The notes beneath the pieces were generated by a model. That model made no database searches. It saw only the letters and a program-made list of their open reading frames with translations, and had not been told where the DNA came from. DNA of 64,000 nucleotides from Schmidtea nova (taxonomy: Eukaryota): contig CM097883.1 in assembly GCA_044892505.1 (NCBI GenBank), positions 250,604,001 through 250,668,000 of the forward strand, read 5' to 3'. This document shows, piece by piece, positions 3,531 to 62,557 of the stretch. A program made the position numbers and the translations under genes. Numbering within the stretch: the first letter of the stretch is position 1; each line of letters starts with the position of its first letter.

Positions 3531-5424
3531 GACAAGGAATGTTATTTAAAATGCTGACGAATACATTATTTTGAAGGACTTATGTCGGATAATGATAAAG
3601 GTGATCAGTTTGAAAGATTTGATTTTATTCAGTTTTAAAAATATATTAAGGTGGTGGTTTCACCGTTGATTTTTTTTCTGAAGCATACCAAAGGTTGCGG
3701 TGGACGACAGTAATTACACCTAAAGGGAGGTCATTGCGATGTTTGATAATTTTGTTAACAACATTAAACAAATTCGATCATAGTGTTGGTATGGGTTGGA
3801 AAAAATTTTGTTTCTAGGGATTAGTGCAACATACATACCTTTATGAATATTGTTAATACTTCACCCAAACACCCATAGTTACTCCTTAGTAAATTATGTT
3901 GATATTGTACACGATGGCGAGAATCCAGAGAACAGATAAGCTTCATTGCCAAAATTACTCCTCGCTGTATTCTCTCTTTCGGGTCCCTTCTGATGATAGA
4001 ATAAGTTACGCATATATCAATTTAAACGATACTTTAAACTTATAAATTTTTATCTTCCTGTGATGTCATTTTATGATTCTACCCTATACGTTTATTTATT
4101 TCCCTAAAATTATCATAATAACAACCACAATATATCATTAATTCTCTTTCACCCCAGTCAATCTATATAATTTAAGTTTGATGATCCGGCCTCCCAATTG
4201 CACCTCTGCGAGAATGAATACCAGACACACCGAAGATCCACGACCTAATGGCCAACATGATCTTTGCACGAATTCAGTTTTTATCGGGAAAATTAACTGA
4301 ACAAAGCAAAACAAACAAATGTATGGTTAAACAAATATTTATTATTGATTACAAATAACATAAAACGCAATTACATATAAAGAATAATAGTTTCAACAAA
4401 CTTGATAGATACATAAAATAACAACATACTTGTTTCCGAGGTACCACAAAATTGAAAAGGAACAATACTGACTGGTGCTGGCTGGCAGAATTGAAATCCA
4501 TAAAAATCCCAGTTAATGTATCCTTCCGCAAAGGTAAGTAAAAATGTATTAACAGTAAGTTTACCGTTCAAAGTTATGATTTTTCAGCTTCTATTTATAC
4601 ATTTTTTGTGTGAAATCTACGCATTGTTAATTAAAACAAGAATATTTAAAATTTAATTCATATATTTATTCTAATATTTAAATTATTTATTTTAATAAAT
4701 GATTATTTATTTATTTTCCTTAAATTTAATTTTATAATTAATTTTAGTTTTTTCAAAATATTTATTTTTAATTCTATTAAATAATGGGTGTATATACTTT
4801 TTGCACGCATTAATTGATTGATTATGTCGGGCAAAAACTGCAAATTGTTTTAATAAAGCAGTAACCCATAAGTAGAGATCCCGCAAGATTCAATTTTAAC
4901 CCAAACATTCATTGAAAACCAAAGTGATTAAGAGAAAAACGTCAAAAAGGTGAAGTGGACTCAAGCACAGTAACCAGTAGAGTACGCGCTAGCTGTGAAT
5001 TTGCAAGTTCCTTCACTGAAATCTCGAGAAAAATTAAATATTATCCAAAGAAGAACGTTTGAAGGTTTGATTAAGCGGAAAACCCATTGAAAATGGTCAC
5101 AAAAAACAGAATTTTGTCGTAAACCTTCAGTGCAGAAAAATTAACACAATTTTAGAAGAAAATTGTGATTTTATCACAAAATTTCACATTTAACAATAGA
5201 AAGAACTAATATTGATCGAAATATCGTAAATTAAATCAAATCGAACAAATTTCGATTCAAAAATAAAAATTTTGAATTAAAATAAATTATTTGTGGTTTA
5301 TAAAAAATTATTACACAAAAATATGTATTTAATTTTCGGAAAATCATTAGAATTAATTTAGAAAAAATTAAAAAGAAAATTCTAGAACAATTTGTTTTAT
5401 TGCACTAGTGAAGATAGCGCAAAA

Positions 5425-5460
5425 TCGATGGTATATATACCGCCATCAAAATGGCAATAA
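5425..5460 (+). promoter_or_regulatory. Palindromic TATA (GGTATATATACC) next to YY1-like CGCCAT/AAAATGGC motifs in W
   Basis: Motif conserved in W2 at ~10010-10050 (reverse orientation). Confidence 0.5.
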
Positions 5461-6194
5461 TAAGAATTTGTAAGATTTTTCGTGAAAATTTAGAATTTGT
5501 GAAAATTATCAGATTTTTTAAGAATTTGTTATTGTCATTAAGAAAAATTTTGTTGAAAGAATATTTCCCGAGAATTTGTTAATGAATTTTCGTGAAGAAA
5601 ATCCTTTGAAGCGGAACTCTGAAATTCTAAGAAGGGATTAAAGGAAGAAGGAGATAAAATCGAGAACCCGATACAAAGATTTTTGCGCGAATTCGAAGAT
5701 TTTATCCGGAATATAAGGAGTAATTTTGTTTTATTATTTTTATTGGGGTTTGGGATCGTCGCTCATCATGCCTGACGATCATCCCATTCCTCGCACTTTG
5801 TTAATTAATATGCTATTTATTATTTTATTTTTATTGATTATGCATTTTTATTATGATATTATTAAAATATTTAATGTTATCAACTCAGTTTTTCAAATTT
5901 TCTTATTACTATTATTATTATGAATCATAAATTCCCAACATAATTAAAAGATTCTCTTTGCAAGCAGTTAACTAAATAAAATTATGAAAAATAAAGAATT
6001 TTTTTTCCTCCCATATCTTCTGACGATCCGTCCAGCCTTGCGTTGTGCGGATTTGTAAGTAGCCTGGGTGGATCATTGTCTGATTGGTAATCGGCCAGCC
6101 CATTTTTCCACTTTAAGGTGAGGCTCATACATCCATAATCACGTCATCCCAACTAAGGAATCGTGGTATGGCTAAGAGCAAGGATTTGTTATAT

Positions 6195-9100
6195 TGGTGG
6201 GTTGTTGATCGTCAATATGACCTTGACGTTTCTATGGCTCTCATCAACAACTCAACACATAAAACATTGAAATAACCATCTTGTTACCCGTCACTATGTT
6301 ACGTTGGTACTGTAACAAGTGGGTGGGTATTCGCAATCAGTGAGCGTCGTCAATACGAAACTATGATTGACCGAATATCTCCTGGGTCCAAGGGCTACCG
6401 ATAGAAGGTTTATTGCCCATTTTGTCCCATCTTACATGATTTAACTACAAATATCTATCTCAAAAATGAAATAATTTCACCGATAAAATCTTAATAATTT
6501 ATCTCAAATCAATACTTTCACACAGTTTTATCTAAATTCACAGGAATTTTCGCACTTTTATTCTATTTGCAAGCATGCATTCGAAGATGTTATCGCAACT
6601 CAATTGGGTGATCAATTATTCCTGCATATATTTGGGAATATACAAATTACCCTTATTTAGACCCAAATTTTTTTTTATTCTCGCGATTTTCTTAAATTAT
6701 TATGTCTTTTATATTTAAAATTCATGTAAACTCTATTTATATTCAAATCCTATTGTCTATCTTACTCTAAATTTATAATATAATTTTTATTAACATTTTA
6801 GCGATTTATACTTTAAATTTTTACCGCGGCCGTGACAACGGGTTTGATTCATTAAAACATTTCCATTTATAATTAATAGTCACATTGTTAAATATGGATT
6901 ACATTAGGAATTTTATTTGGTAAATCCCCCTTTTATTCTGTTCCAGGCAAATTTCACTTGGATTTTTGATCAAAAGGATGAAATCTACATGATCAAACTT
7001 TTCCATGCTAAAAATTTTGTTATAATGCATCAATTGATTTTACTTTCAATGACATTATTTCAAAGTTTCGTCAGCCAAATTCCCCAATTTCTCAAGTAAA
7101 ATTCTTTTACTAATTTTAGCTTAAAATGATTTTCCTTGTAGTATCATTTAATTCAAAACAAAAGCTATTCAATCTGGCATAATTGCTGGAATCCCTATTC
7201 AAATGCCTCGGCTACTCTGTTAGAATATTTTGAATATTCTCGTAATGAACCCATCCACCCAGTTTTCCGTGGACAAGTTTATAGATTTAAGAACTTTTGA
7301 TATTGTTATTTCTATTTTATGTGATGTTCAATAAAAGTTTTCCTGGTTTGATTTTAATTAGTTTATTGATTTTGTTTAGGGATAGGATGATGGCTAACGT
7401 CAGTAAAACTTCTTTTACGATGAAATTTTCCGATTAGGTTTTGATTAAATAAAATTAGTAATTATCCCTTTTCCCAGTTTTTAAAAAATAAAAATATATG
7501 TTCTGTTTCTATTACTTTATGGATAAAAAAAAATTTTCTGAATGTATTTTGTTATCATAAGGTATGTTTAACGAGTGAGGTGGGCTGATCTGTAGAGATA
7601 TGTGAGAAATCCAACTCTCAGGGGGGTGAAATTAATATAAATGCGGATTGTTGGCTAACATACATCGGGTGGGGTTTATGAATCGGCGTACTGTACCCTA
7701 TAAGGAAACTCTATATAGGATGTTGTAGTTTGCTGTGGTTTGGTGAGACGAGATGTAGTGATTGTAGGCTGGTGTGCATATGGTATAGAAATAATATGGT
7801 AATATATTGAAGTAGATATCCTATTGTTGTAGATGTATGTATTTGTATGTCGTTGTGGTTGAATGAGACGAAGTACAATGACTGTGTGTTATATTGTTTC
7901 TGTTATGTTTGCGTGTGATGTGTGGATATATGAAGGGAACAATTGAGTGCTTGTGAGTGTGGTTAGACGTACGATGCTAACTAACATGTCTGGGTGGAAT
8001 TTTCGGTATGATTTGCTTGTGTGTATATGATTGTTGAATGTTATTGAATGATACTGTGTATGTGTGTATATTGTATTTTATATGTATTGTTGCTGTATTA
8101 TCAGTATGGGTGATGCTATTGAATGAAATGGATGTAATTTTTTGCAATTAGAGATGCATCATGATTTTGAGATATCGTGGGGGTAGTTATAATATACTAT
8201 ATATAAATTATATAAAATATTTTTAGCTTTAAAATAATAATAATACTTTTTAAGTTAAAATACTAATAATAATTTTATAATACTTTTTGCAAATCTCACT
8301 TTATAATTTTCATGAAAATTAAATAACGATAAAATTTATAATTTTTATAATGTAGATTTTTGAATTTAAATTTTTATATTTTAAGAATAGATATATTAAT
8401 CATAAAATTTTTCTATAAAATTTTCGAATTCAGATTTTTACAAAATGATAAAAATTATTAATATAATAATAAAATTTCGATCTATAATTTTTATGGGGTT
8501 CGATATAACTTTTGATTTACAATTTTCTGGGATTTTATAAAATGATCAAATCTTTTATATAATAACAGTATTAGGAAAATTTTTGGTTTACAATTTTTCC
8601 ATGATAAAATCTTTGCAGCATATTAAAAAGCAAATCTTTATTCTTGATCAAAATGAAATAATAATAAATTTTTATCCATAAATTTCGAAATCCAAATAAG
8701 CATTCAACCTAAAAAGTTTTATACGCTGAATAAAAAAAAATAAAAATAACATAAGTTATAAATTCTTCAAAGAATATTTTTCGATATCGAGCAAAATGAA
8801 TTTCGGTTTTGTTGAGCATGAATTTCCCAATTAAAGTGCACGCGAATTTTTCGGGACGCTTCACTTAGGAATTTCAAGCTCTCGAAAACGAGGTTCACTG
8901 GAGAAACTTATTTAGACAATAATGAGTTTAATTCAGATCCAATCAATACTTGTTTCACAATTCGTTTCATTTCATGATCATTATACTAGCTTTGAGCATT
9001 ATTTCGAACAATTTTCTTTTCGACATTAGCTTCCGTTTTTCTTGCGTTTTTCGCATAAGATGATCGTTGTTGAGAGTGTGAAGGTGAAGGTGAGTACGAG

Positions 9101-10628
9101 TCGATTTTATTCAATAATATTTCCTATTTTAGATTTCAAGACATGAATTAGAAAATGTTTTGTTATATTACGAAATTTCTTATGTAAAATAATAAAAATA
9201 TGCTACTCTATTATAATAAAGATCATTAGTATAACAAATCCTTGCTCTTGGCCATACCACGATTCCCCAGTTGGGATGACGTGATTATGGATGTATGAGC
9301 CTCACCTTAAAGTGGAAATATGGGCTGGCCGATTACCAATCAGACAACGATCTACCCAGGCTACTAACAGATCCGCACAACGCAAGGCTGAATGAATCGT
9401 CAAAAGATATGGGAGGAAAAAAAATTTTATTTTTCATAATTTTATTCAAATAACTACTTGCATGGTATTTTAAGTATTTTGGGAATTTGTGAATATCAAG
9501 AAAATTCAAGATTAAACTGAATAAAAAATGAATTTAATATTTAAATAATACCATAACAACATATTAACATTAAATAAAATAAAATAATAGATGCATTATG
9601 AACTAATAAAGCGCGAGGAATGGGATGATCGACAGGCATGATTACCGACGATCCCATACCCCTCGAACAAGTTTAAAGAGAAAATAAAATAGAAATAAAA
9701 TAACCCTTACATTCCTGTATTCTCAATTTAATTTCTGCTCCAAAGGACTTTCTCCACGAAATAAATTAACAATTTAATTTCTGCCCAATGCTAAATTCTT
9801 TTAGAAAATTTTCAATAAGTTCTCCGGAAAGTTTTTCAGAAAAATTCTCAATAAAATTCGGCTGAAAATTTAAATTCTCCCGGAAAGTTCTTCAAATCCT
9901 TTTGGAAAAAATTTTTTTTAACAAGTTCTTCAACAACTTCTCTTAGAAAAATTTTAACAAACTAAATTCGATTAAAATAAAAATTTTTGTTACCACAAAT
10001 TCTGATTATTGCCATTTTGATGGCGGTATATATACCGTCGATTTTTCGCTATCTTCACTAGTGCAATAAAACAAATTGTTCTAGAATTTTCTCTTAATTT
10101 TTTCTAAATTAATTCTAATGATTTTCCGAAAATTAATTCCATATTTTTGTATAATAATTTTTTATAGACCATAAATAATTTATTTTAATTCAAAATTTTT
10201 ATGTTTGAATCGAAATTTGTTCGATTTGATTTAATTTATGATATTTCGATCAATGTTAATTCTTTCTATTGTTGAATGTGAAATTCTGTGATAAAATCAC
10301 AATTTTCTTCTAAAATTTTGTTAATTTTTCTGTACTGAAGGTTTATGACAAAATTCTGTTCTTTATGGGCATTTTCAATGGGGTTTCCGCCTATTCTAAC
10401 TTTCACGCTTTCTTCTTTTAATTTTTCCCGAGATTTCAGTGAAAAGACTTACAAATTCGCAGCTAGCGCGTACTCTACCAGTTGATGTGTTTTGATTCCA
10501 CTTCAACTTTTGGTGTTTTCCACTTAATTGTTGATTTTTAATGGATGCTAGGGTTAAAAATGGAATCTTGCGCGTTCTCTACCTATGGGGTTATCGCTGT
10601 ATTAAAAAAATTGCGTTTTAGCCCAACA
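6195..10628 (-). mobile_element. W2: 4.43-kb W-family copy inserted in reverse orientation into W1
   Basis: atat|TGGTGGG at 6191-6201 and CCCAACA|atat at 10622-10632. 9233-10628 is the reverse complement of 4825-6190, ~7950-9230 of ~10633-11980, and 6195-6430 of 14130-14245 + 17635-17751. Confidence 0.9.
8756..9036 (-). pseudogene. Disabled copy of W orfA
   Basis: Aligns to 10825-11108, with ATG>ACG, TGG>TAG and 1-nt indels. Confidence 0.75.
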
Positions 10629-10824
10629 ATATTAATGATCTTTATTATAATATAGTAGAATATTCATACTACTTTACATAAGCAATTCGTAATATAACAT
10701 AAATTCATCCAGCTCATGTCTTGAGATCTAAAATAGGCACTATATTACTGAATAAAATTGACCCGCACTCACCTTCGCCTTCACCCTCACAACAACTGTC
10801 ATTTTATCCGAAAACGCAAGTAAA

Positions 10825-11108
10825 ATGGAAGCTAATATTGAAAAGAGAATCGTTCGAAATAATGCTCAAAGCTGGTATAATGATCACGAAATGAAGCGAA
10901 TTGTGAAGACAAGTATTGATTGATCTAAATTAAACCTCATTTATTGTCTAAATAATTTTCTCCAGTGAACCTTGCTTTCGGGAGCCTGAAGTTTTTAAGT
11001 GAAGCTTCTCGAAAAAATCGCGCGCACTTTAGTTGGGAAATTCATGCTCGAACGAAACCGAAGTTCACTTTACTCGATGTCGAAAAATATTCTTTGAAGA
11101 ATTTATAA
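10825..11108 (+). CDS. W orfA: two-exon gene (10825-10912, 10966-11108), ~76 aa, unknown function
   Basis: MEANIEKRIVRNNAQSWYNDHEMKRIVKT/MNLAFGSLKFLSEASRKNRAHFSWEIHARTKPKFTLLDVEKYSLKNL. The 53-nt GT..AG intron carries several small indels versus W2. Exon differences are enriched for synonymous changes. Confidence 0.7.
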
Positions 11109-11669
11109 CTTATTTTATTTTTAATTTTTTTATCTCGGTATATAAAACTTTTTAGATTGAATTCTTATTTGGATTACAAAATTTGTTGATAAAAATTTAT
11201 TATTGTGTGGATTTCGTTTTGATCAAAATTAAAAATTTACTTTTATTATACTACGAAAGATTTTTAATGTAAAAATTGTAAACCAAATATTTTCCAAAGG
11301 ATTTGTAAATCCAAAATTATATCGAACCCCGTAAAAATTGCCAATCGAAAGTATTGTTATTATATAAAAGATTTTGTCATTTTATAAAATTTCTAAAAGT
11401 TTGTAAATCAGAAATTATATCGAAACCCATAAGTTTATAAATCGGAAATATTATTATTATATTAAAATTTTTGTCATTTTATAAAATTCCAAATCCAAAA
11501 TTTCATAGGAAAATTTTTACGATTAATATATATATTCTTAAATTATAAAAATTCGAATCTGAAAATGTATATTATAAAAATTTAGAAATTTTCTTATTTT
11601 CATAAAATTATAAATTTAAAAATTTATAAAAATCATTATAAAATTATTAGTATTATTTTAATTTGGAAA

Positions 11670-11675
<6 letters not shown>

Positions 11676-11731
<56 letters not shown>

Positions 11732-11740
11732 ATTATATAT
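11676..11740. repeat. (AT)n microsatellite inside W1
   Basis: Direct reading of the sequence. Confidence 0.95.
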
Positions 11741-12417
11741 TATTATTATCGAAACCCCCTCGATATCTCAAAATCATAAGGCATCCCTATTTGCAAAAAT
11801 TTACATCCATTCCATTCAATAGCATCACCCATACTGATAATACAGCAACATACAGATAAAATACAATATACACACATACACAGTATCATTCAATAGCATT
11901 CAACAATTATATACAAACAGGCAAACCATACAGAAAATCTACACAGTTATGTTAGTTAGCATCAAATCTCGCATATACAATCACATATTGATACATGCAA
12001 ACTTTTACATTCAAATTATCATATTAAGTCCCATCCATCCATTCGTAAAGTACAAAAATTTCATAAGTCAGTAATATATATCAACCAAGTACAATTATCA
12101 TGCACCGGTAAAACCTTAAGATTCCGATTACCCGAAAATATAATCCTCATTCATAATAAAGAAGAATCTAATGTTCTCTAAAAGTTTTATCTCTTATCGT
12201 TGATTTGAAATCGTTTTCCCGGACTGGATCGATGAAATTTCAAATCTCCGATCATAAAATTTTTTTTTTAATTTTTGTATAAAATTTCGATATTATGAAG
12301 AAAATAAATAAATTGAAGTAAGATTCCTAAGTTTTTAATTTTTTATTATTAATTATATCATGGAAATCGTAATCAAAAATTTAAGAGAAAATTCATAAAA
12401 TTTTTATTTTTACTTAC

Positions 12418-13455: not shown

Positions 13456-13923
13456 TTGAGGGAATATACAAGTTATTACTCGAAAATGCAAGGCACAATA
13501 AAATTTCGGGCCCGCTGTCGCGAAATGGAAGCAACATGGTCCGACAAGGAAACAGTAGATCGATTGAAAAAGCAAAATCAACTAATGATGCAACAAGCCG
13601 CCGAAGACGCAATGAGATTGCGGGCGTGTCGTGTCTCAATGCGAGAGCAGGAGCTCGTGAATGAGAAACTAAGGGTAGATAGTGGCCTCATCTCGGCCAT
13701 ACTACCGAAATCTCAGCCTCCACCTCAGGAATTGTTCCCGGTGAGAGTGGAGGAAGAAATCGCAGCAGCAGCAGCTCCGACCAAGCCAAAGCGATGGAGG
13801 CCCAGTAAAGGAGCAAGAGCTAGGAATAAGCGTCGCCAAGAAGCGCGAGTATTAGGCCAATTGGGAGTAGAGGCCTCGAAAATCATTGATTTTAACATTG
13901 ATTTGACCAGTACACACATTTGA
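13456..13923 (+). CDS. W1 orfB: ~155-aa coiled-coil protein with an Arg/Lys-rich patch; true start uncertain
   Basis: Open, GC-richer ORF. A ttttag acceptor at 13434 is followed by ATG 13437 in another frame (possible frameshift); the first in-frame ATG is at 13486. Contains KPKRWRPSKGARARNKRRQ. AATAAA follows the stop. Confidence 0.65.
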   Translation: MREYTSYYSKMQGTIKFRARCREMEATWSDKETVDRLKKQNQLMMQQAAEDAMRLRACRVSMREQELVNEKLRVDSGLISAILPKSQPPPQELFPVRVEEEIAAAAAPTKPKRWRPSKGARARNKRRQEARVLGQLGVEASKIIDFNIDLTSTHI

Positions 13924-14249: not shown

Positions 14250-17200
14250 TTTGAGGCCCTAGGCAAAAATCAATTATTGTGGCCCCTCTAAGATTTTTTT
14301 TTAAATAATAAATAATTTTTTTTTCATGGCTTAGTTTCTAAATTTTGACCAAAGAAAGCCCATTTATAATATTTTTTTTCGTGATTTATTATTTGCAAAA
14401 TTATCAATTAAGGAGTCATAGTTAATTTTTTTGACTAGATCGCTTTCAATTGCCATGATAGCTAAGTGATTTAGTTTTTTTTGGCCAAGTGACGTCCTTA
14501 GGTAGTTTTTGACCCGCTTAAGAATGCTAAATGATCTCTCACCAGACGCATTTGCAATTGGGATTGTTAAAAATTTTTTTAGGATTATTTCAACGTTTGG
14601 AAATGTTGATGATAAACCTTCCATAATTGATGCATACATTTCAGGAAGTGTTAATAATTTTTCCAATTTTACAAAATGAAGGAACTGTTCAACCTCATCT
14701 TTGAATACTAATTGATTTATGTCATCTTTATAGTGTTCAGCTAAATTTGATACACACTGAGCAAATTTTTCTTCAGGCAAATCTAAATCAACAAATATTA
14801 GAAACTTTTCTAATACCTTGTCATAAACTACAGACCTTCTTTTTATTTCAAAGTTAAAAGTATCACAAATTGAGTAAAATGTTTCAACTTTGAATAGTTC
14901 TTTCCCACATAAAATTGTGTCATTATCAGAAGTTTCATCGAATAGTATTTTTCTTTTCCTGTTTCGATTTTTTGCTGTTGAGTATTCTGTACTACCAGAT
15001 AATTCGATTGCTTCTTTTTCCATTTGGTGAAAATATGCATCATTAGTTCGAATACTAAGTATGAATTCTGATAAAGATTTCAATAAATATGTTCCTTTTT
15101 GTAAGTTACATTCTTTGCTTTGTAACGACTTATTGGTGGCATTGATTCTTTGCAATAGCGTATTCCAAAAAATCAATAACAGAGCCGTCTCTAAATCTTC
15201 AAAACTGCTATGTAATTTTTTCGCCTCAATTTTTGCTATGGGTTTTTCAGATGGGTTAATACAAATTTCACCAAGAACAGTTTTTATGGAAAAAATTCAT
15301 TCTTACAGTTAATACAGCTTCAGCTCTAACTGACCATCGAGTGTCGCATATACGTTTTAAACTATGGCTTAATTTTTGATCAGTATTCATTAGCTGATCC
15401 CATCTCTTTGTCGAAGAGGAAAAAAACAAACAAATTTTGAATAAAATCAAAGAATCTAATAGCTTTAGAAAAACATTCTGCTGCTGTATTTCCAACTACA
15501 TTTAAAGAATGTCCTGCGCAAGGTACAAATTCAGCATTTTGCTGTAACATTTAATTTTGGCTTGGAGACCGTTATAAATGCCTGACATGTTCGCAGCATT
15601 ATCATACGTTTGTCCCCGGCAATTATTAATATTCAACCCTAATTCTGACAAGGCGGACAAAATCGTTTTTTCTAAATATGTTGCATCATGATGTTCAATC
15701 GAAATAAAACATATGAACCTTTCTTGAATTTTTTGATCCAGATCTACGTACCTGATAATAATAGTTAACTGGTCAGTATGGCTTGCATCAGGCGTGGAAT
15801 CAACTATAAGAGCAAAATAGTTAGCTTGGTTTATTTCATCAACAATGGATTTTTGTACGGTTTTGCCCATAAGTTCTATAAATTCATCACACGTGCTTTT
15901 AGATAAATAATTAACATGCCCACTTCCGCAATTACTGTATTTTTCTAAGTGAACCTTTAAGAAGTCATCAAATTCAGCCAAATATTCAATACAGCTGAAA
16001 AAATTGCCTCTGGAAGAATTATCATGTCCTCTGAACTCTAAACCCAAACTTCCCAAAAGTTTAACTGTAGCAACGACTCGTTTTAATACCTCTCACCAAT
16101 AAATTGACTCTTTTTCTATTACCTGTAAAAGTTTGGAATCGATGCGACCACTTATTTTAGCACGACGAACATAAGCACACATACAACTTTTATGTTCTTT
16201 CGACTCATCATGTCTTTTCAAAACGTCTACAATATTTTTCCAATCTGAATATCCTGAAACTAGAACATTAGATTTTTTACTAAATAGTTTACAAGCAAAG
16301 CAATAAACAGATTTCGTTGTTTCAGAATAAATCAACCATTCTCTTAGCTCTTGGACTCCGTTTATTTTAGTCGTATAAAAATGTACATCATTTAATTTTC
16401 GGTATATTTGTTGATCATTGTTATCTTTATAACATTTTTTAGAAGACTCTAAATCTCCCACATTTTTGGGTTTTGTACAGATACAATGTTCAATCACATC
16501 ATTAGTAATTATTTTTGGCCATAAACCAATGTCAGTAAAGATAGGATAAGTATTTGTACTTACTACTTCACTCTCAATTTCAACCTCAATGTCATTGGTA
16601 GTGGCAACGCAATTATCACTTGCACCTACTTCTGCACAAAGACTGCTTATCGAAAGATTAACATCGCTATCAGCTATTACTGGTAGTGAAACAGTTTTAT
16701 CTGCAGCCGCAGTACTGGTAGATGGAATATTTTTATCCAAAGACATAAATTTAGCAAGGGAGTTTCTTTGCTTTTCGTTTTCCTTCAATTGAATTTTTTT
16801 CGCAATTGTTTTTGTGCGCCAGACTCGAAAGTTCTTTTCATTTTAACGTATATTTGTCAATATTTTTTTTTTAAATAAAATGGAATAATTGTCGAGTGAA
16901 TTATGAAATATTAAATGACGAAAGCAAGAAGCAACAACGATTGGTTTCGGTAGTTTTAAAAAAACTGTTGATTATTCAGAAAATATCAATCTAAAATCAA
17001 AATTATGCTAATAATCAATACGTACAAATATTTATTTTCAATATTCAAAATCATGCAACGAAAATTTGATGTTAACGTAACAAAATTCAAACAATAAATG
17101 AAATGAAATTGCATATGAAATGCTATGACTATTGTTTGTATTTTTTAAAATAATTTTATTATTTTTCTTTTTAATTTTTCAGAGTTTAAAACCTATTCGT

Positions 17201-17634: not shown

Positions 17635-18184
17635 ATTACCAACGTTACTTAGTGACGGGCAACAAGATGGTTATTACAATGTTTTGTATGTTGAGTTGTT
17701 GATGAGAGCCATGGTAACTTCAAGGTCATATTGACGATCAACAACCCACTAATTAAAACAATAAAATTTAATTTCTATTCTATTTTCATTTCTATCTCTG
17801 TTGTTTTTAGATATTTTAACCGGGATTTCTTCTATAATTTTTAATAAATTATTGTTGGGTCCGCCAAATAGGCTAGAACAACAACAATAGAACGAAAGTT
17901 TAAAATAATAATAAAATAATAAACATAAAAATAGCAATAAAGACAAATTAAAAATAGGAATAAAATAGCAAATAATATTTAATAAGTTTCCAGTAAAAGG
18001 AAATTTTAAAAATAAAACGGTAAATAACAGCAAAGGGGGCCTGAAATAAGAAAATTAAGAATTAAATAAACTAATAGTACAAATAATTAATTAATTACTC
18101 GAAAAACCAGGACCACCCAGCGAGAAACCGGAAAAGGAAATAAAATAATGTTTGGATTTAAATAAAATAATAAAAACACTTTGA

Positions 18185-18245
18185 TGGACGGTCTGATCCT
18201 AATTGGTCAATCCGACCAGCCGGATCAGTATAAATACCGATCCGA
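18185..18245 (+). promoter_or_regulatory. Pol II-type promoter of V (ATTGG/CCAAT box + TATAAATA at 18229-18236)
   Basis: Block conserved in V' at ~32200-32265 (reverse) while flanking sequence diverges. Confidence 0.7.
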
Positions 18246-18527
18246 AAATCACAACTGTTAACTGTTATTTTTAACAAAACTCGTTCACTGACACACACAC
18301 AATTTTTACTTACTTATCGAGCAACCAATTTTTACTCAATTATCAATAATTTCGAGAATCGTTTTTAACCAAATCTTATATTCGAAGAAAAATTCAACCC
18401 AAAACAGGGTACGGAATCGTAACGTTTTATTTTAATTGTATTATAATGTTTTAATGTACCTATGATTTTTATTATTACAATTTTATATCTGATTTTATTT
18501 TTATCATTAATTTAATGCATATAGTTA

Positions 18528-18612
18528 TGCTTCCTAGGCTGCTCACGCGGCAAGGGAGCCCGAGTCGTCGTTGTGGGGCCTCACAGTCTCACGTGGCGGT
18601 TCCACCTTTTTA
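18528..18612 (+). ncRNA. Putative structured RNA element: two hairpins followed by T6
   Basis: GC-rich island conserved with V' 31818-31900; stems retained with compensatory or wobble changes, loops changed. Confidence 0.55.
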
Positions 18613-19323
18613 TGAATTAATAAAACATTTTCAATGATATCATTGACAAGTTTGCGTTAAAAATTTCATAATTCGGTTGCACAGAGGACAGGGCGCGAGA
18701 GATAGCGGGAAAAGATTTGAGGGTTTCCAGAAAGTGTGAAGCCTCCTACGGATGGCAGGTAACCGATGTCCGGTTAATACATTAAGGTTGTTTATTTTTA
18801 AGCCAGGAGATCACATGGGAAGCGAGAAATTTTTAGATTTTCGTTAACAATCGATTTTAGTGAAAAATTTCATAGAGGCCAAAGTCCACAATCAATCTAT
18901 CGACACAATTCAATTAAAATCTAAAATGTAATTATGATTGAATTCCGATCGTATTAGACGGAATTCCAACTAATACTATAAATAACTTTATGCCGATCGC
19001 TGTATATAGCGCGGTAACCCCGAACTTTATTATCCTAAACGTCGTACATGACGCAGGAAGAATTTAAAAATATATTAGTCCGACCGTGGTATATCGCGGC
19101 GAAGAAAAAGAATAGAATATCAATATAAAAAAAATCAACTCGAACAAAGTACAAGGATGAAAAATAAAAATCGAAAAACATGAATATTAGTACAGTTCAA
19201 GTCAATAAATCTTGCACGGAGTAAAACGGGAACGATAGATATCCGACGTGTTATAACTGAGACTAATTTACGGTCCATAATTTCGATTTATAATCTTTAG
19301 AAAATTTTTTCGAGGCAGCACAG

Positions 19324-19824
19324 ATGGCGGTAACAAGCCTAACCCAGATCCTAACCGAGCTCAGAAATTCGATGGACATACCCAAGGAGGGCGAGATGGA
19401 AGACACGCTCAAGGAACTTCCACCTCAAATTCTACGAACCATCAATGCGCAAATGTACAAATGGCGCCAGGGATTCGATAGAAAATGCCCGTTTTCCATC
19501 TGGAAAAAGGGGAGAGATCAGATTCTGTATAGAGGGGCCCCAGATGGCCAATCTCAGATGGCCAATCTCAGATGGCCAATCTCAGATGGCCATTATTCGA
19601 AAAAATTCGGCCAGCTACTGATCCGAATAACTGGCAAGGATAAAAGGGCAGATCAACTAATCTACTGGGGACACATACCGCGAAAGGAACTGCGCAACCT
19701 GAAGCTACAGGAGTTCATTCCTCGAAAGTCCTTCGGAAGGGAAGGCGCAGATGATCAACCTCCGTTTACGTGGGACAGGCTTCGTACAGCCCCAATTAAT
19801 CAGGAATTACATATTCTTTTCTGA
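19324..19824 (+). CDS. V orf1: 166-aa protein of unknown family
   Basis: Open ORF, homologous along its length to V' 30532-31040 (AQMYKWR/AQMFKWR, KCPFSIW/KCPLSIW, WPIS, YSKKFGQL/YSSKFGRL, YWGHIP, PINQELH/PINQGLH). CAG directly precedes the ATG; AATAAA downstream. Confidence 0.85.
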   Translation: MAVTSLTQILTELRNSMDIPKEGEMEDTLKELPPQILRTINAQMYKWRQGFDRKCPFSIWKKGRDQILYRGAPDGQSQMANLRWPISDGHYSKKFGQLLIRITGKDKRADQLIYWGHIPRKELRNLKLQEFIPRKSFGREGADDQPPFTWDRLRTAPINQELHILF

Positions 19825-19987
19825 AAATGACAATTATGTTAATTATATAACAATAAATGTGGTGTTAAATTATAATCTATTTGTTTTCCGTATTGCGTTC
19901 TATATTAATTCACTACAGACTGTTATTAAATTTAAATGATACATCAGCATACGAAAGATGGAACTTTAAAGTTTTCCAATTTTAGAC

Positions 19988-20584
19988 ATGAATTTAGAAG
20001 CCGCCCAAAGAGAGATTGAAAAGATGTGGCGGATCCGGAGAGCCCAGGACAAGGAGTTGGGTCTCCTCAAGGAAAGATTGGCCAAGTCCGAAGCGCAAAC
20101 TGCCTATTTCCGTAAAAGCTGGTTCGCTCCTGCTCGAATGAAGGAGCAGATTGGCAAAACCGAGCGCGCACAACGAACAGCGGACGACTACAAAATGGAA
20201 TGGGAAGCTACGGAAATCGAGCTTCGTAAATGCTTACATTCGGTAACCGCTTCCTACATCGAACAGGAGCTGCGGGATCAAATCCGACCGGTAACTTACC
20301 AAGAATGGACGGCGGAGAAAAAACTGGGAACGTCGATAGGCACAGACGTCGACGGCCTCATCGAAATTAGTAACGAGCAAGAACCATCGATCAATCCTGC
20401 CGCTCAAACTGCCAATACCCATCAGAAACGTAAGCGCATAGGGCAGAAAAGGCGTCGACAAAGAAAGCTGTTCGCTCAACGGATGCAGAACCAAATCGAC
20501 GATCTGCACAAATTAACCGAGAAAGCGCTATTGGACGAAATATTTCCTCCAGCAGGAATTTTTAGTGATTTGATCGAGAAATAA
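19988..20584 (+). CDS. V orf2: 198-aa coiled-coil protein with Arg/Lys-rich patch (KRKRIGQKRRRQRK)
   Basis: Open GC-richer ORF; ttttag acceptor 2 nt before the ATG; AATAAA after the stop; weak similarity to W1 orfB (LRxC..S..EQEL). Confidence 0.75.
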   Translation: MNLEAAQREIEKMWRIRRAQDKELGLLKERLAKSEAQTAYFRKSWFAPARMKEQIGKTERAQRTADDYKMEWEATEIELRKCLHSVTASYIEQELRDQIRPVTYQEWTAEKKLGTSIGTDVDGLIEISNEQEPSINPAAQTANTHQKRKRIGQKRRRQRKLFAQRMQNQIDDLHKLTEKALLDEIFPPAGIFSDLIEK

Positions 20585-21930
20585 ATACAAATTTTGAACG
20601 ATTATCATTCCTATTATTTTCTTCGGTTTAGTTTAATTAATAAAAATAAAGTAAATAAATAATTATGAGAGCACTAGATTAGAAAGTTTCATTCAACGTA
20701 AAAGATAATAAAGAACAATCCTCCGAAATTTTATTGTAAATTACATAGTATGTCATTAAAGCGTAAGTCCTTCAAACGGCCGCAATGAACCCGTAAACAT
20801 AAATGGGGAGTAGTACTAGCAATAGTGCTCACCTGCCCATCATTGTTTAATCACCCTGCGCATCACCAACTTGATTATCCAGGGAAATAATCAAGGGCGC
20901 TTGAGTGTTTAGTTGCACATTTTATGTATGATCATGGATGAGGGATTCCTAGTCATTGTTAGAACATTTTTCATCTAACCCCTCCATGAACCCAGCATTA
21001 TTCTCTTTATTTTGATACTAATTTTATTCTTCAAACATGCTTTTTATTAGCAATGATCTTCCCCATTCAATTCTCATGCGGTCTTTCGTGTGTAAATTGG
21101 ACCTGCATTCAAATTTGTGCTCTCTTTTGAGATGCGTATTTTTCATCGTTTTTCCCTAACTCGAGCGACGTATAAAATGTGGTTAGTATGACTTATATTT
21201 GTGCTTTAATATCCTATTTACTTTGATGCTATTTTCATGTTTAAAACTCTTATGCGTCATCGTGAGCTTTTAATTTAATTTTGAAGTATTAAAACAAAAG
21301 TTGAACCTCACTTCTACCAGCCCAACAATAGTGTTTATGCCGCGGTCTTGCCAATATATTCATCGAGTATGAAAACTATGTTGTGGATGATGTCTTTGTA
21401 GCTAGCTACCCTTGACTAGCCAAGACATGATCGCTATAGACAGCGAAATATTGATGCCCAGATCTAATTGATCTCAACTTTGGGAAACGACCCTTGTGGA
21501 CGCGAGTACTTGCCCAGTGTGTCTTTTAGGCAAAGGCATTTAATCCTCGCTCTTTAGGACTGACAATAATAAAGCACATTTACTTCGCCTTGATAGAATT
21601 TTTATAATAATGATTATTAAAAGTAATAAAAATCCTTAATAATAATTATACCAATTATAATTTATAAGAATTAATAAAAACAAAAAAATTATATTAATAA
21701 ATATAAAAATAATAATACTGAGAAAAAATACCAAATAATAAAAATAATTAATAATAAAAAAGCTTTTAAGAAGTAGTTAATAATAAAAATAATTGTAATA
21801 ATTAATAGTAATAATTATTAGTAATAATAATAAAATTTAATAAAGAAATAAAAATAATTATTAATAAAAATATTAATAATAAATAATATTATCATAATTT
21901 TCTTTTTGTTTCACCTTTGATCTTTTTTAA

Positions 21931-23372: not shown

Positions 23373-23844
23373 ATCGGTCGCGTTTCATATTCTAGGTCTG
23401 TACTAGGCTGTTTTTTATCATTAATTGTTTCTTATTTGTAATTCATTTGTTGAAAATCCGAGTGAAGACTTTTTACATGTAAATTTTAATATATTGTTGT
23501 TTTTTGCCTGGAAATTGTTAGTTTTATATATAATTTACCTTTTTTACTTTCGGAGAATCTGAGAATTGGCTGTTTTATATGTAAATTTGACTGTGTTGTT
23601 GGTTTAAACCTGAGAATTTTTAAGTTTTACTTTGAATGGACCATTTTTACATTTGACAATCAGAGAGTTGACTCTTACGTGGAAATTGTACTGTTTTAAT
23701 GCTTGACTATGTAATGATTATGTAATATACACACATGGGGTAGTGGTTCAGACTCCTCACGTCCACCTACTACAAAACTTCAAACGCCTTTTTCGTGCCA
23801 AAACCGGCCCGATCGAGTTTTTAGTGAAACAATAGATAGACAGA

Positions 23845-54055: not shown

Positions 54056-55349
54056 CGTGGTTGCTTCACGAAGTACCTGCACTCGATATCAAAAATAAGA
54101 GATATTATAATAACTTTATGCTTCCGTTGTAGAGAATTTATAAAAGGTTAGAAATCTTCATTTTGTTTTATTTAACCAATATTTGTTTAGAGCAAATATT
54201 TAATCAATCAAAATATGGCAATTTTAAGCATTGAATATCGGTCGGTGATTAAGTTTTTTGTAATGTGCGAGGCTTCAAGATTAGAGATATTAGCAATGCT
54301 CCAAGAGACGTATAAAGAAGACTGTCCATGTGATTGAACTATTTATTTTTGGATTAGTGAATTCAAAAGTGGAAGAATGTCAGTTATTGATGAATCAAAG
54401 CAAGGAAGACCGATTGAAATTGATGAAGACAGAAAGAAAAATCAGATTGAATCGTTAATTAAAGACGAACGAAGGATTACAGTAAAAGATTTGGCGAAGT
54501 ATGTCAATGTCAGTGTCGGTAAGTGTCATGAAATGATAAAAGAGATGGTGTGCGGAAGTTGTGCAGCAGGTTTGTTCCTTATTTTTTATCAGTTGAATTG
54601 TGTGAAAAAAGGCTAATGATTTGTGAACACAATCTTGCACTGTTCTAGGAACATGGTGAGTCATTTTTGAAAAACATTATAACGGAAGACGAGACACCAC
54701 TAAGTCTTTATATTCCAGAAAGTAAAAGATCTTCAGCAGAATGAAAGTTTCTAGATGAAAAGCCGACAAAGAAGCTGAAATCTCAACCATTCACCGTCGA
54801 AATTTGATGCTCTCGATTTTTTGGGATAGTGATGGAATAATCAATATTGATTTCGCAGATAGACAAGTTAAAATTAACAGTGTTTATTATTCTAATCTCA
54901 TTGAACAAACTCGGAAGCTTCGACGAAAAAAGAAAAAAACAAATTTGTGGCTGCTTCACGACAATGCTCCAATTCATGCATCAAAACTTGTGTCGGAGAA
55001 AATTGTTCGATGTGGCTTTTCAACATTGGAACATCCTGCTTATAATCCTGATCTGGCTCCAAGTGATTTCTATTTATTTAGACATTTGAAGAAACACTTG
55101 GCTCGTAAATTCTTTGTTTCTAGTGATTCGCTAAAGGAGGAAATAACAAAATTCTTCGACGAAAAACCAAAATCGTTCTACGATAACGGGTTTTTAGAAC
55201 TTCCTGTTTGTTGGAAAAAGTGTATTGAGAACAATGGCTCTTACATTGAAAAATAAGCCTAGACATGTCGTAGATTCTAAAAATAAATTTGTTTTGTCAA
55301 TATCTTTTGTTTTTGATACCGACTGCAGGTACTTAATGAACCAACCACG
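54056..55349 (+). mobile_element. Full-length mariner (1294 bp), transposase pseudogene 54215-55256
   Basis: ~50-bp TIRs TA|CGTGGTTG...GATATT; EYRSVIKF, ITEDET, LHDNAPIH and HPAYNPDLAPSDF motifs. Confidence 0.95.
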
Positions 55350-59212: not shown

Positions 59213-59524
59213 TCGTATCGGGGTTGCAACTTTCATTGCTGATACCCCTAAAGCAAACGTTAATAAGAAAAATTCAAAAATAAACATTTATTTAAAAGAT
59301 ATCTTTCGTTGGTTAAAATTCTGCTTGTTGAAATTTTCTGCGTTTTTAGAATTTCAAATCAAATCTCATTTTTTCTTCTTTAAAACAAAACTTTTATATA
59401 TATATATATATCGATATTTTTATTTAATATAAATATGTTATATAATATCTTAAAATTATTTAAAATATAAATAAATAAATATATAAATAAATATATATTT
59501 AAATATATAAATAAATATATGTCA

Positions 59525-62500
59525 AGGGGGTCCCCTTCCGTCCGGGCCGCCATTCTCTTCACGGTCCTGTGGTTCCTCTCAACAATTCCGTTTCCCGATG
59601 GTCGGTAAGCGCATCGAAAAATACGACCAACACCCCACTTTGCACATAATTCCTCTAATTGACGAGACCTAAATGAACTGCGATTATCCATGAGCAACTG
59701 GCACGGAGGTCCGCGTTCTCTGACTATTTGTTCACAGATTCTAGTAATAGTCACAGCATCCTCGTTACAAATCTCTCTCCATATTGCGAATCTACTCGGT
59801 CCGCAGTCGATTCACGTCAAATAACGCTTATTCCGGCAGTGAGTCACTTCTAACGCCAATCTGGTGCAATTACACTTCACCGCCAAATTTCCAAATTTCC
59901 ATCTTACAGGTGCCGGATCTATCGTTCGACACTTAACACAGTTTGATATCACACCTTGTACCGCCCACGAGATACGTTAGGAAGCAAGTTCCTTACGAAA
60001 TACAGAGTTATATCCACTCCAAAGTGATGCGCCTCATGGCACTTCTTATTCTGTCGGATATCGATATAGTAGAACAACATACTTGTTTAACCCATGTAAG
60101 TCAAGCTTTCATAACTCTAGTTAAAACGTCGGCCTTGTTTTTCTCGGTCGGGACAAACTCCACAGCTGTCTTTAAGTTGTATGACAGTTGGAGTTCGTGA
60201 ACAATTTGTAGACGCCTACGAAATAGCATCTCGGAAGATCCGTGAGTTTTTACTCGATGACTATCTGTCAGTAATGACCCCAGCCAACTTTGGACCGTCG
60301 TAGAATCTGATTTCACGATTATCGACGACAGATCCCACTTAATCGCGAGGTTAATTCCTTTAATTACAGCATCGAGTTCAGCCACGTTTATATGCGCTGC
60401 GTCGTCTGTCTTTCTCATCCAAGTGGCATCCTCCACGATCTCTCCGTTGATTTCGAGACAAACTCCAAGAGCCAGATTGCTTGCATCACACCATACAACT
60501 TCATCTTTTGTCGGTGAAACATGCCAAACTCCACGAACTGGGTCATCTTTCTTAACGAGTTCGATAATTTCAGCTATTATCATGGAAGCATAATCTCCAA
60601 TTGTATCTTCCCACGTTGAACCGGTACTCTGGCGCTTAACATAACTACATGCAATCCGCAACCAGTCGGCAACCGGGTAGTGACCGACCAGCTGACCGCA
60701 CAAGGAAAACAGCTCCCTCCTCGTCATCGCTTCGTATGGTCCCATCTCATTGATTACGTTTCCTCTCCTCCAATATCTGCCTTCCATGCATCTAGAGATC
60801 TGTAATCCCAAAACTTTAGAAGTATCGATTTTTTCCAGTTTTTATTGCTAGCCCATATCTTGCCAGATAACGCACAACTTCGTCTAATTGTACTTTTGAC
60901 GTATATTTACAATGATATCGTCAATATAACTGTCGGTTGCCTCTTTAATGTCTGCGTAATCCTAACACTCTTCGCACTATGGCAGACATTATTTTCGGTG
61001 CTACATTGAGGCCGAAACCCAATCTTGTCAAAGCATATACCTTTCTTTTAAACCTGACTTTTTGAAAATTCCACAGATCGGGATTTATATGTATTTGTAG
61101 ATAGGCTTTGCTCAGATCGAGTATCTCGACGTTCTCTCCGAATCTTCGGCAACGCAGTAAAGATTCATCACAAGCTTTATTCTGACCCGTGTGGCTCGTT
61201 ACATATTTATTCAGTTCGCGATAGTCGAGTACTGGTCGTATTTTTCCTTTGTTAGACTGATTAACTGCCATTAATGGTAGTATACCATCAGAGTTTCCTT
61301 CATAAGGCGTTAACAAACTGTTCCTAATCCATTCTGTGATTTCCGTGTCGAATCCATTGCGTAGCTCTCGTTTTTACATGTTTTACCAAGTTCAGGAGGT
61401 TGATTTTTCCATTTCCAGCTCACTGTCCAATTGCCGGAAAGGAAATCGGCTTGAAAGTCTTCATCTCTTATTTCCAGAGACTCGGTATGTCGTTCGTCTG
61501 CCCTCAAGAAATCGGACTTTCTCCCCACAGAGCTGGCCAAAGGAAACGATACCCCTTGCCTTGATATATTCACCCCGCCAAGCATTCCTTTAACATCCAT
61601 TCCCAAAATTACACCAAAATCCCTTGGATGGTTTTCCATCACCAGGCAGAACACTGGCAGACTTGTCTTTCTAATAACAATGTTAACCTCGACGGTTCTC
61701 AAACTCTTGGCCAATGATCCATCAGCCACCAGCACACTCTCGCTCTTCCCATACGGTCCGCTGTCCAACGAGGACAAAATAATAGATTGGGTACAACCTG
61801 AATCTATTACAGCTTTGAAAGTCCTTCCGTTGACAGTTACAACAACAGTTTGCAGTGTCATTATTGCTTTTCCGGAGCGAACACTGGCGCACGTGTTACT
61901 CCGATAGCGTTTCCCGTCTGTTTCTTTGGGCACGATCGCGCGAGGTGAGCTTTATCACCACATATCCAACATTGTTTGTTTTTTCGGAAACATGAATCTT
62001 CATTGTGTCCTTTCTTTCCACAAAACGAACACATTTGGTCATTAGGATTGACAATTATTCTTTCTTTTACTCCCAGCATACAACTTTGCTGAGAAACTGC
62101 ATTACTTATCATAGCTCGAGCTATTTGTACGACCGCATCCATGTCATTGTTTCGATGTTCGCAATAGCCTGTAGTGACTGTGATATTGACGCTGGAAGTC
62201 CAGTAACGAATGAACATCTAATAACGACATCATTGACACCAGATGACTTACCCAGAGATGTTAGTTCGGCCAGATAAACATCGACAGGCTCGTTGCTCCA
62301 TGATCGATTCTTCAATTTCTCAAAGGCAAGAAACATCGACATAAAGAAGGCTCTTTTCATTGCTGCTTCGGTTTTGATGAAACTTCCTCTGACTTCATCG
62401 CTGAGATGTTGATACACCGCATATGCGTCTCCTTTCATCAGTATCGACAGAAACATCACCAGGTTCTCAATCTTTTGCATGAGAGCTATCGTTGGGAGAA

Positions 62501-62557
62501 CCATATCGTCACATCACCCGTGCCATCAAATTTTTCAATATATTTAATAACTTCCAT
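59525..62557 (-). mobile_element. Ty3/Gypsy-type LTR retrotransposon internal region (gag-PR-RT-RH-IN), degenerate, no LTRs seen
   Basis: Gag KFDGTGDVTIW and two CCHC knuckles; protease AVIDSG; RT IRPVLDYRELN, LDLSKAYLQI, YIDD; RNase H CDAS/NVAEL/SDS/NKAD; integrase HEAHH..CVKC, MDN, GIVERNHRTVKR, truncated near 59525. Confidence 0.93.

What the first reader, a model, noticed from the sequence alone, without database searches (positions are those of the whole stretch)
19324..19824. Unrecognised conserved protein family (orf1) encoded by V and V'
Seen: two well-diverged copies keep WR, KCPxSIW, LYRG, WPIS, YSxKFGxL, YWGHIP and PINQxLH, so the protein has been constrained. I recognise no domain. 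The aromatic- and basic-rich core could bind nucleic acid (inference).
Basis: partly seen in the sequence, partly recalled or inferred. Interest (0 to 1): 0.7.

Follow-up and report, generated by a model that had tools for sequence, protein, structure and literature searches.

The report
Accessory gene inside giant retrotransposon LTR
This unrecognised gene sits inside the terminal repeat of a giant, virus-like jumping element that is scattered through the genome, has been conserved by selection on the element, and likely encodes a regulator that binds the element's own RNA; a relative's predicted shape matched none of the solved structures searched.

Summary
The ORF and its conservation are real. 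V (17853-20997, TG...CA, 4-bp TSD) is a solo LTR of a Burro-like giant Gypsy element: identical units flank ~29-kb elements with gag, env, pol, ankyrin and TRAF genes. ORF1 is an accessory gene inside that LTR, not a host gene. V' is a truncated, frameshifted sister LTR. ORF1 evolves under purifying selection between element lineages (dN/dS about 0.14). It has an AG directly before its ATG (32/37) and AATAAA after its stop (48/58), which points to a spliced mRNA from the LTR promoter; no RNA data tested this. A distant subfamily (HHalign 91.5%) gave a confident model (pLDDT 87.5) with no structural match (best Z 3.0); no sequence homologue was found outside this genome. Covarying bulged hairpins lie just upstream of the acceptor. 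Two elements 99.5% identical in RT carry ORF1s only 41% identical. Best guess (0.4): an RNA-binding regulator of the element's own splicing or export; main rival (0.3): host counter-defence. The scan noted similar LTR genes and leader splicing before on other genomes. LTR genes may be described in sources I could not read.

The parts
17853..20997 (+). V: 3,145-bp solo LTR of a Burro-like giant Gypsy element; ends TGTTGGG...CCCAGCA; 4-bp target-site duplication TTAT at 17849-17852 and 20998-21001
   Evidence: 17 of the 21 loci with both ends have a perfect 4-bp TSD; the same unit flanks gag-env-pol bodies
18202..18236 (+). CCAAT-like box (reverse) and TATA-like box; inferred LTR promoter
   Evidence: the 16-nt TATA motif occurs 1,271 times in G000, reversed control 1
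18409..18410 (+). putative splice donor GT of a short leader exon (inferred; the weakest of the signals)
   Evidence: G|GTA found in 13 of 29 LTRs by a strict pattern; a GTA at the same place in the 7 LTRs that cover it in the alignment
18529..18611 (+). conserved GC-rich two-hairpin block followed by a T run; role unknown
   Evidence: RNAfold z -2.4 in V and -3.0 in V'; no Rfam match
18992..19102 (+). array of three bulged hairpins (lower stem, 2-3-nt A-rich bulge, 4-bp upper stem, GTANAT loop) at about 18992-19015, 19033-19058 and 19079-19102; candidate RNA response element
19322..19323 (+). putative splice acceptor AG directly before the ORF1 ATG
   Evidence: 32 of 37 ORF1 copies; background 1,082 of 19,087 ATGs, 5.7%
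19324..19824 (+). ORF1, the finding: LTR-encoded accessory protein, 166 aa here and 158-160 aa in close relatives; copy-specific 27-nt insertion at about 19544-19585
19852..19857 (+). AATAAA after ORF1; putative poly(A) signal
   Evidence: within 45 nt of the stop in 48 of 58 copies, against 91 of 799 upstream 45-nt windows
19988..20584 (+). ORF2 (198 aa): second LTR gene with a coiled-coil-like N-terminus and an Arg-rich motif (read from the sequence); AG at -4/-3 of its ATG
   Evidence: dN/dS 0.18; AG in 50 of 89
30455..32599 (-). V': 3'-truncated LTR of a sister lineage (5' end at 32599), with promoter, structured block and two hairpins (about 31223 and 31183); no ORF2, no 3' end
30559..31040 (-). 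ORF1 of V', frameshifted near 30722

Best explanation
ORF1 is an accessory gene carried inside the 3.1-kb LTR of a Burro-like giant, env-bearing Gypsy element; it is likely expressed from a spliced mRNA, and its protein likely binds the element's own RNA to regulate splicing or export. Shown: LTR location, solo-LTR status of V, purifying selection between lineages, and conserved AG, AATAAA, promoter-like and hairpin sequences. Inferred: the TATA box at 18228 would start a transcript, a short leader would be spliced onto the acceptor in front of ORF1 (or ORF2, or internal accessory genes), and the RNA would be polyadenylated after ORF1. Because the copies examined keep the intron, the genomic RNA would need to stay unspliced and read through these signals. 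ORF1, alone or with the Arg-rich ORF2, would set that balance by binding the bulged-hairpin array 90-330 nt upstream of its own acceptor. It would work like a complex-retrovirus regulator (Rev/Rex/Rem logic) without being a member of those families. Odds: LTR accessory gene about 0.97; spliced expression about 0.8; RNA-regulator role about 0.4.
For: LTR: TG...CA ends with 4-bp TSD. LTR pair 3151/3152 identical with TSD ATAG round a body with zf-CCHC, PF24664 fusion env (E 1.6e-71), RVP, RVT_1, RNase H, rve, ankyrin and TRAF/MATH. The primer site matches a tRNA-Pro(TGG) of this genome. Selection: dN 0.169, dS 1.175 over 168 of 231 pairs (63 saturated pairs dropped) among 22 of 30 copies picked by non-coding DNA. 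Splicing: AG before ATG in 32/37; AG within 6 nt in 12 of 18 subfamily-B copies and in 4 of 4 internal accessory ORFs of one element. Hairpins: 38 of 47 subfamily-A LTRs. Found by 5' arm and loop only, 138 distinct instances pair on the 3' side with compensatory changes: loop-closing pair T-A 71, G-C 38, C-G 14; lower pair T-A 65, C-G 64; third pair T-G 37 against C-A 6. None in 180 kb of non-LTR sequence. Subfamily A pI median 10.2; no polar catalytic residue shared by both subfamilies.
Against: No RNA, binding or functional data. ORF1 has no Arg-rich motif; ORF2 has one and is the more obvious RNA binder. The hairpin array is unchanged between two LTRs whose ORF1s are only 41% identical, which a tightly co-evolving pair need not predict. 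Subfamily B has ORF1 but no such hairpins (0 of 30) and I found no replacement repeat; some B members are acidic. The loss of hairpins from A to B goes with change in both ORF1 and ORF2, so it does not single out ORF1. The donor is less well conserved (13 of 29 by strict pattern). The U3/R/U5 borders are inferred from motifs only. Pairwise dN/dS values and hairpin counts are not independent (related copies), and part of the G-U excess can come from CpG decay.
Confidence: 0.4

Rival explanations
1. ORF1 is an LTR-encoded host-interaction or counter-defence protein (for example against piRNA or chromatin silencing). It would act in trans and be exchanged between lineages as a variable cassette, in the manner of MMTV sag; the hairpins would serve ORF2 or a host factor.
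For: Two full-length elements 99.5% identical in RT, 99.1% in Env and 97.2% in IN carry ORF1s 41% and ORF2s 62.5% identical. ORF1 averages 63% identity against 82% for ORF2 over 1,431 pairs from 54 of 68 LTRs; 230 of 422 pairs with ORF2 at 90% or more have ORF1 at 70% or less (the set holds a few duplicate loci and one internally frameshifted copy). ORF1 dS is saturated where ORF2 dS is 0.3-0.7. Burro elements carry apoptosis and ubiquitin domains (PMC6431247, section 7) and are repressed by SMEDWI-2 (PMC8532177, passages).
Against: Mean dN/dS is low; no site-wise positive-selection test was run. No similarity to a known suppressor or host protein. Swapping LTR DNA would also help escape piRNAs whatever the protein does.
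Confidence: 0.3
2. ORF1 is a DNA-binding or co-activator protein that trans-activates the LTR promoter (foamy-virus Tas-like logic, recalled).
For: Basic protein in subfamily A; highly conserved promoter core across lineages; the hairpin stems are also short DNA palindromes.
Against: Bulges, a fixed loop and G-U tolerant covariation fit single-stranded RNA better than duplex sites; no known DNA-binding fold was matched (searches are inconclusive on this); no acidic activation segment is evident in subfamily A (by eye).
Confidence: 0.12
3. ORF1 is a particle-associated structural or packaging accessory protein, or a small enzyme of unknown type.
For: Compact, well-folding alpha/beta domain; the element encodes Gag and Env, so particles are plausible.
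Against: No His, Asp, Glu or Cys is conserved across both subfamilies, which argues against an enzyme; fast exchange against a near-identical body is unlike a core structural partner.
Confidence: 0.13
4. V is a non-autonomous DNA transposon or a host gene family, or the ORF is a non-coding by-product.
For: TG-type ends with 4-bp TSD also occur in some DNA transposons (recalled); most copies examined are solo units.
Against: The same unit flanks gag-env-pol bodies as near-identical direct repeats with a tRNA primer site; dN/dS about 0.14.
Confidence: 0.02

Closest known systems
Burro / GYPSM1 giant gypsy-like LTR retrotransposons of planarians (PMC6431247, section 7 read whole)
   Same: About 29-30 kb with LTRs; Gag with CCHC knuckles, in-frame Env between Gag and protease, PR-RT-RH-IN, ankyrin repeats, MATH/TRAF, RING and coiled-coil accessory ORFs.
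   Different: The section read mentions no protein-coding genes inside the LTR. Here TRAF/MATH is a separate ORF downstream of the polyprotein. BIR, BCL2, dUTPase and SUMO domains were not seen by Pfam at E 0.01. No Burro reference sequence was available for direct comparison.
MMTV sag, an LTR-encoded accessory gene (PMC11998498, passages)
   Same: Coding gene inside an LTR, so present in solo LTRs; highly variable and recombining against a conserved pol/env.
   Different: Sag is a type II membrane superantigen; ORF1 has no evident membrane segment and no sequence similarity was found; the host-side target cannot be a T-cell receptor in an invertebrate.
Rev/Rex/Rem export regulators with their RNA response elements (Rem function from PMC11998498 passage and PMC2661877 abstract start; the rest recalled)
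   Same: Small basic accessory protein likely made from a spliced mRNA, with a structured RNA element in the intron of the unspliced RNA.
   Different: ORF1 is a globular alpha/beta domain without an Arg-rich motif; ORF2 carries that motif; no homology; binding and export untested.
Lentiviral Tat/TAR (recalled)
   Same: Bulged stem-loop with a short upper stem and a six-base loop.
   Different: TAR lies at the start of the transcript; these hairpins are repeated and lie about 750-870 nt after the TATA box, near an acceptor.

Membership tests
Solo LTR of a Ty3/Gypsy element | TG...CA termini with 4-6 bp target-site duplication | tested here: met
   17853-20997, TSD TTAT; 17 of 21 loci with both ends among 30
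Solo LTR of a Ty3/Gypsy element | the same unit flanks a gag-pol body as direct repeats elsewhere | tested here: met
   G000:C1:183045631-183075408, LTRs 3151/3152 identical, TSD ATAG; G000:C2 93.90-93.92 Mb, TSD ATTT. These are related lineages (ORF1 57% and about 35% identical to V's), not V's own lineage.
Solo LTR of a Ty3/Gypsy element | tRNA primer-binding site after the 5' LTR; PR-RT-RH-IN order | tested here: met
   site complementary to a tRNA-Pro(TGG) of this genome; Pfam order RVP, RVT_1, RNase H, integrase
Burro/GYPSM1 | about 30 kb total length | tested here: met
   29.8 kb and 28.7 kb
Burro/GYPSM1 | in-frame Env-like fusion domain between Gag and protease | tested here: met
   PF24664 at E 1.6e-71 ahead of RVP in one reading frame; that copy has an in-frame stop upstream
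Burro/GYPSM1 | ankyrin and MATH/TRAF domains | tested here: met
   Ank_2 E 8.4e-13, MATH_2 E 6.2e-21
Burro/GYPSM1 | BIR, BCL2-like, dUTPase, SUMO-like domains | tested here: inconclusive
   not reported by Pfam at E 0.01 in one element; the paper used HHpred for several of them
Burro/GYPSM1 | sequence identity to Burro1-4 or GYPSM1, and whether their LTRs hold ORF1 | not testable with these tools
   no Repbase; the original paper is not held
Rev/Rex/Rem | Arg-rich RNA-binding motif in the protein | tested here: not met
   absent from ORF1 alignments A1-A4; present in ORF2
Rev/Rex/Rem | expression from a spliced mRNA | tested here: inconclusive
   signals only; no RNA
Rev/Rex/Rem | structured response element in the intron, bound by the protein | tested here: inconclusive
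   covarying hairpins present in subfamily A; binding untested
Rev/Rex/Rem | nuclear export signal and export activity | not testable with these tools
   needs experiment
MMTV Sag | encoded in the LTR; variable and recombining | tested here: met
MMTV Sag | type II transmembrane protein | tested here: not met
   globular models; no long hydrophobic run by eye; no membrane predictor was run
Any known fold | structural match to a solved or predicted viral structure | tested here: inconclusive
   no row stands out; no AlphaFold DB library was on hand

The most novel reading that the evidence does not exclude
A Gypsy-class element runs a complex-retrovirus-style RNA switch entirely from within its LTR: ORF1 is an RNA-binding domain of a new fold that, with ORF2, reads a TAR-like hairpin array to choose between spliced accessory mRNAs and genomic RNA. 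Because the cassette has its own promoter, acceptors and poly(A) signals, the many solo LTRs would be self-contained expression units that regulate full-length elements in trans, and the cassette is swapped between lineages.
Probability: 0.25. Interest if true: 0.8.

Novelty: new variant of a known kind. Interest (0 to 1): 0.55.

Why it matters
Genes inside LTRs are known from a few complex retroviruses (MMTV sag; HIV nef, recalled), and my literature searches found none described for Burro or other Gypsy elements. If the reading holds, an abundant and stem-cell-active planarian element family (PMC6884822, passage) has retrovirus-like regulation, and its solo LTRs are potential protein-coding units that will contaminate host gene sets. 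ORF1 is also a small, well-folding domain with no structural match so far, which makes it a cheap structure target, and the hairpin array gives a direct binding test.

Tried and rejected
Sequence searches outside the genome found nothing: single protein and alignments against 5.8 billion proteins (near lengths only, so fused forms were not searched), the subfamily-A profile against 1.84 billion representatives (0 hits; subfamily B was not run there), PDB sequences (best E 0.53 and 2.4), Pfam (best stray hit Exostosin E 0.0014 in 5 of 47 members, disregarded), NCBIfam, ESM Atlas, viral and metagenome contigs. These collections probably hold little planarian repeat DNA, so this does not show absence in related animals. 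Fold searches gave no match: subfamily-A model (pLDDT 63.7) (best Z 2.5); subfamily-B model (pLDDT 87.5) (best Z 3.0, rmsd 4.0-5.0 over 70-76 residues, amine oxidase N-domains). Rfam had no match in the LTR. A pattern search for intron-less LTR copies found 0 among 1,271 promoter motifs; exact motifs make this a weak test. A suspected full-length subfamily-B element at C2:132.41-132.45 Mb had no gag-pol body; another B LTR is followed by RING, Gag and Env matches but is truncated. The window ORF at 13456-13923 is not detectably related to ORF2 (E 1.3 or worse). Zinc-finger, 2H-phosphoesterase and YTH-like readings, recalled from motifs, were dropped because the Cys, His and Trp involved are not shared with subfamily B. 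No complex prediction was run. The preprint 10.64898/2026.01.28.702291 (passages) was not relevant.

Full report
Observation. The ORF at 19324-19824 encodes 166 residues. A second copy at 31040-30559 on the minus strand is 41% identical over 116 residues and continues in another frame. Five of the seven motifs are in one frame in both copies; YWGHIP is split in V' by a frameshift near 30722. V' also stops at about 30455 and lacks ORF2 and the 3' end. V's ORF1 has a net 27-nt insertion and ends two codons early relative to its nearest relatives. So the family is real, but neither window copy is pristine.

What V is. Homology ends sharply at 17853 and 20997. The unit has TG...CA ends and a 4-bp TSD; 17 of the 21 loci with both ends, among 30, have a perfect TSD. 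At G000:C1:183045631-183075408 two such units, 3151/3152 identical and bounded by a TSD, flank a body with RING, Gag-CCHC, a fusion-glycoprotein Env ahead of the protease, RT, RNase H, integrase, ankyrin and a TRAF/MATH gene. The primer site matches a tRNA-Pro(TGG) of this genome. A second full-length element has the same plan. This is the architecture described for planarian Burro/GYPSM1 elements (PMC6431247, section 7 read whole). V is therefore a solo LTR, and ORF1 and ORF2 are genes inside it. The full-length copies examined belong to sister lineages, not to V's own.

Selection. To limit bias I picked 30 copies by the non-coding 3' end of the LTR. ORF1 was present in 28 and intact in 14; ORF2 was present in 30 and intact in 23. 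Among the 22 with both genes in one frame, ORF1 dN/dS was 0.14 (168 of 231 pairs; 63 with saturated dS dropped) and ORF2 0.18; close pairs gave 0.52, as expected from decay after insertion. Pairs are not independent.

Depth of the family. A distant ORF2 relative led to a second ORF1 subfamily, B. It aligns with subfamily A over 116 ungapped columns (HHalign 91.5%, E 8.5e-7), lies in the same position in 3-kb LTRs (TSD found in 9 of 20), and one such LTR is followed by RING, Gag and Env matches. Positions shared by both are mostly hydrophobic, Pro or Gly, plus two basic residues; no catalytic-type residue is shared. The A alignment gave a middling model (pLDDT 63.7). The combined alignment, with a B member first, gave a confident one (pLDDT 87.5, pTM 0.82) with the same helix-strand order in the shared core. 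No sequence or fold search gave a match; these results are listed under Tried and rejected, and a missing match does not prove a new fold.

Expression signals. A CCAAT/TATA block lies 0.9-1.3 kb upstream of ORF1 in the copies that have it. An AG sits directly before the ATG in 32 of 37 copies against a 5.7% background, and AATAAA follows the stop within 45 nt in 48 of 58 against 91 of 799 windows. ORF2 has an AG at -4/-3 in 50 of 89. A donor candidate at 18409 is less conserved (13 of 29 by strict pattern; positionally kept in the 7 aligned). After seeing earlier finding e1-8578977 I checked four internal accessory ORFs of one element; all four have an AG within 6 nt of the ATG. All of this is inference: no RNA run was listed.

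Hairpin array. One to three bulged hairpins were detected 90-330 nt before the ORF1 ATG in 38 of 47 A-type LTRs and 0 of 30 B-type. Searching by 5' arm and loop alone, the 3' arms of 138 distinct instances pair with compensatory changes at the loop-closing and lower-stem positions, and T-G outnumbers C-A 37 to 6 at one position; none occurs in 180 kb of non-LTR sequence. Whole-region RNAfold support is modest (z -1.8 in V, -0.4 in V'), and Rfam has no match.

Cassette exchange. Two elements 99.5% identical in RT and 99.1% in Env carry ORF1s 41% and ORF2s 62.5% identical, with LTR DNA alignable mainly at the ends. Across 54 of 68 LTRs ORF1 averages 63% identity and ORF2 82%, and ORF1 dS is saturated where ORF2 dS is 0.3-0.7. 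Recombination within the LTR is the simplest reading; no formal test was run.

Mechanism. All copies examined keep the putative intron (none without it, a weak test), so the packaged RNA would need to escape splicing and the internal poly(A) signals. A basic LTR protein with a structured RNA array beside its own acceptor fits a regulator of that choice (0.4). Against this, ORF1 lacks the Arg-rich motif that ORF2 has, the hairpins are stable while ORF1 changes, and subfamily B has no such hairpins. A variable host-interaction or counter-silencing role is nearly as likely (0.3), given the exchange pattern and PIWI repression of Burro (PMC8532177, passages). Transactivator (0.12) and structural or enzymatic roles (0.13) are less supported.

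Relation to what is known. The element works like, and on the testable features is, a Burro-type element. ORF1 is not a member of Rev/Rex/Rem (no Arg-rich motif) or Sag (no membrane segment; PMC11998498 passages), though it resembles them in logic and location. Searches found no description of genes inside Burro LTRs. The original Burro paper with its supplement and the Repbase GYPSM1 entry could not be read, nor figures, and they may mention such ORFs. PMC11410931 (passages) and PMC6884822 (one passage) only mention Burro.

Verdict. A real, selected accessory gene family without a detectable homologue, inside the LTR of a known kind of giant retroelement: new variant of a known kind, interest 0.55.

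Noticed in passing
window 18529-18611 (+) and about 31812-31900 (-): Conserved two-hairpin GC-rich block ending in a T run inside the LTR, with a related block in subfamily B; could be a packaging signal or a small Pol III-type RNA. No Rfam match.
   Followed up: partly
window 19988-20584 (+): ORF2: second LTR gene, coiled-coil-like with an Arg-rich motif kept in the distant subfamily (31% identity, E 8e-26); a better Rev/Tat-like candidate than ORF1.
   Followed up: partly
window 26030-29704 (+): Fragmented protein-primed DNA polymerase B with an endonuclease VII-like segment (Pfam), Polinton-like, close to the truncated end of V'.
   Followed up: partly
G000:C1:46566592-46569387 (L022-L025): ORF1 segment tandemly repeated with a 775-bp period inside one LTR, at least four copies.
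   Followed up: no
window 13456-13923 (+): 155-aa ORF with a coiled-coil-like part and an Arg-rich tail; no similarity to ORF2 by blastp; may belong to another element.
   Followed up: partly
window 45563-45982 (-): 139-aa ORF with several dibasic sites, reminiscent of a peptide-precursor exon (recalled resemblance); no Pfam match.
   Followed up: no
window 4817-11963: Nested long inverted repeats (for example 7973-9232 against 10629-11963 at 79%; 4817-5471 against 9995-10636 at 87%).
   Followed up: no
window 23815-24860: Tandem array with a 144-bp period.
   Followed up: no
window 33917-35646: 222-aa ORF at 34406-35074 with a GIY-YIG-like end (recalled motif; no Pfam hit) between 99% identical inverted repeats; Penelope-like.
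   Followed up: no
G000:C1 from 459.61 Mb (L251-L253): Large tandem tRNA-Pro(TGG) array with a 308-bp period; 1,105 genome-wide matches to the pattern.
   Followed up: no
window 14364-16788, 47729-48790, 54804-55256, 59380-62504: ORF fragments that look like hAT, mariner and ordinary Gypsy elements (by eye; not tested).
   Followed up: no
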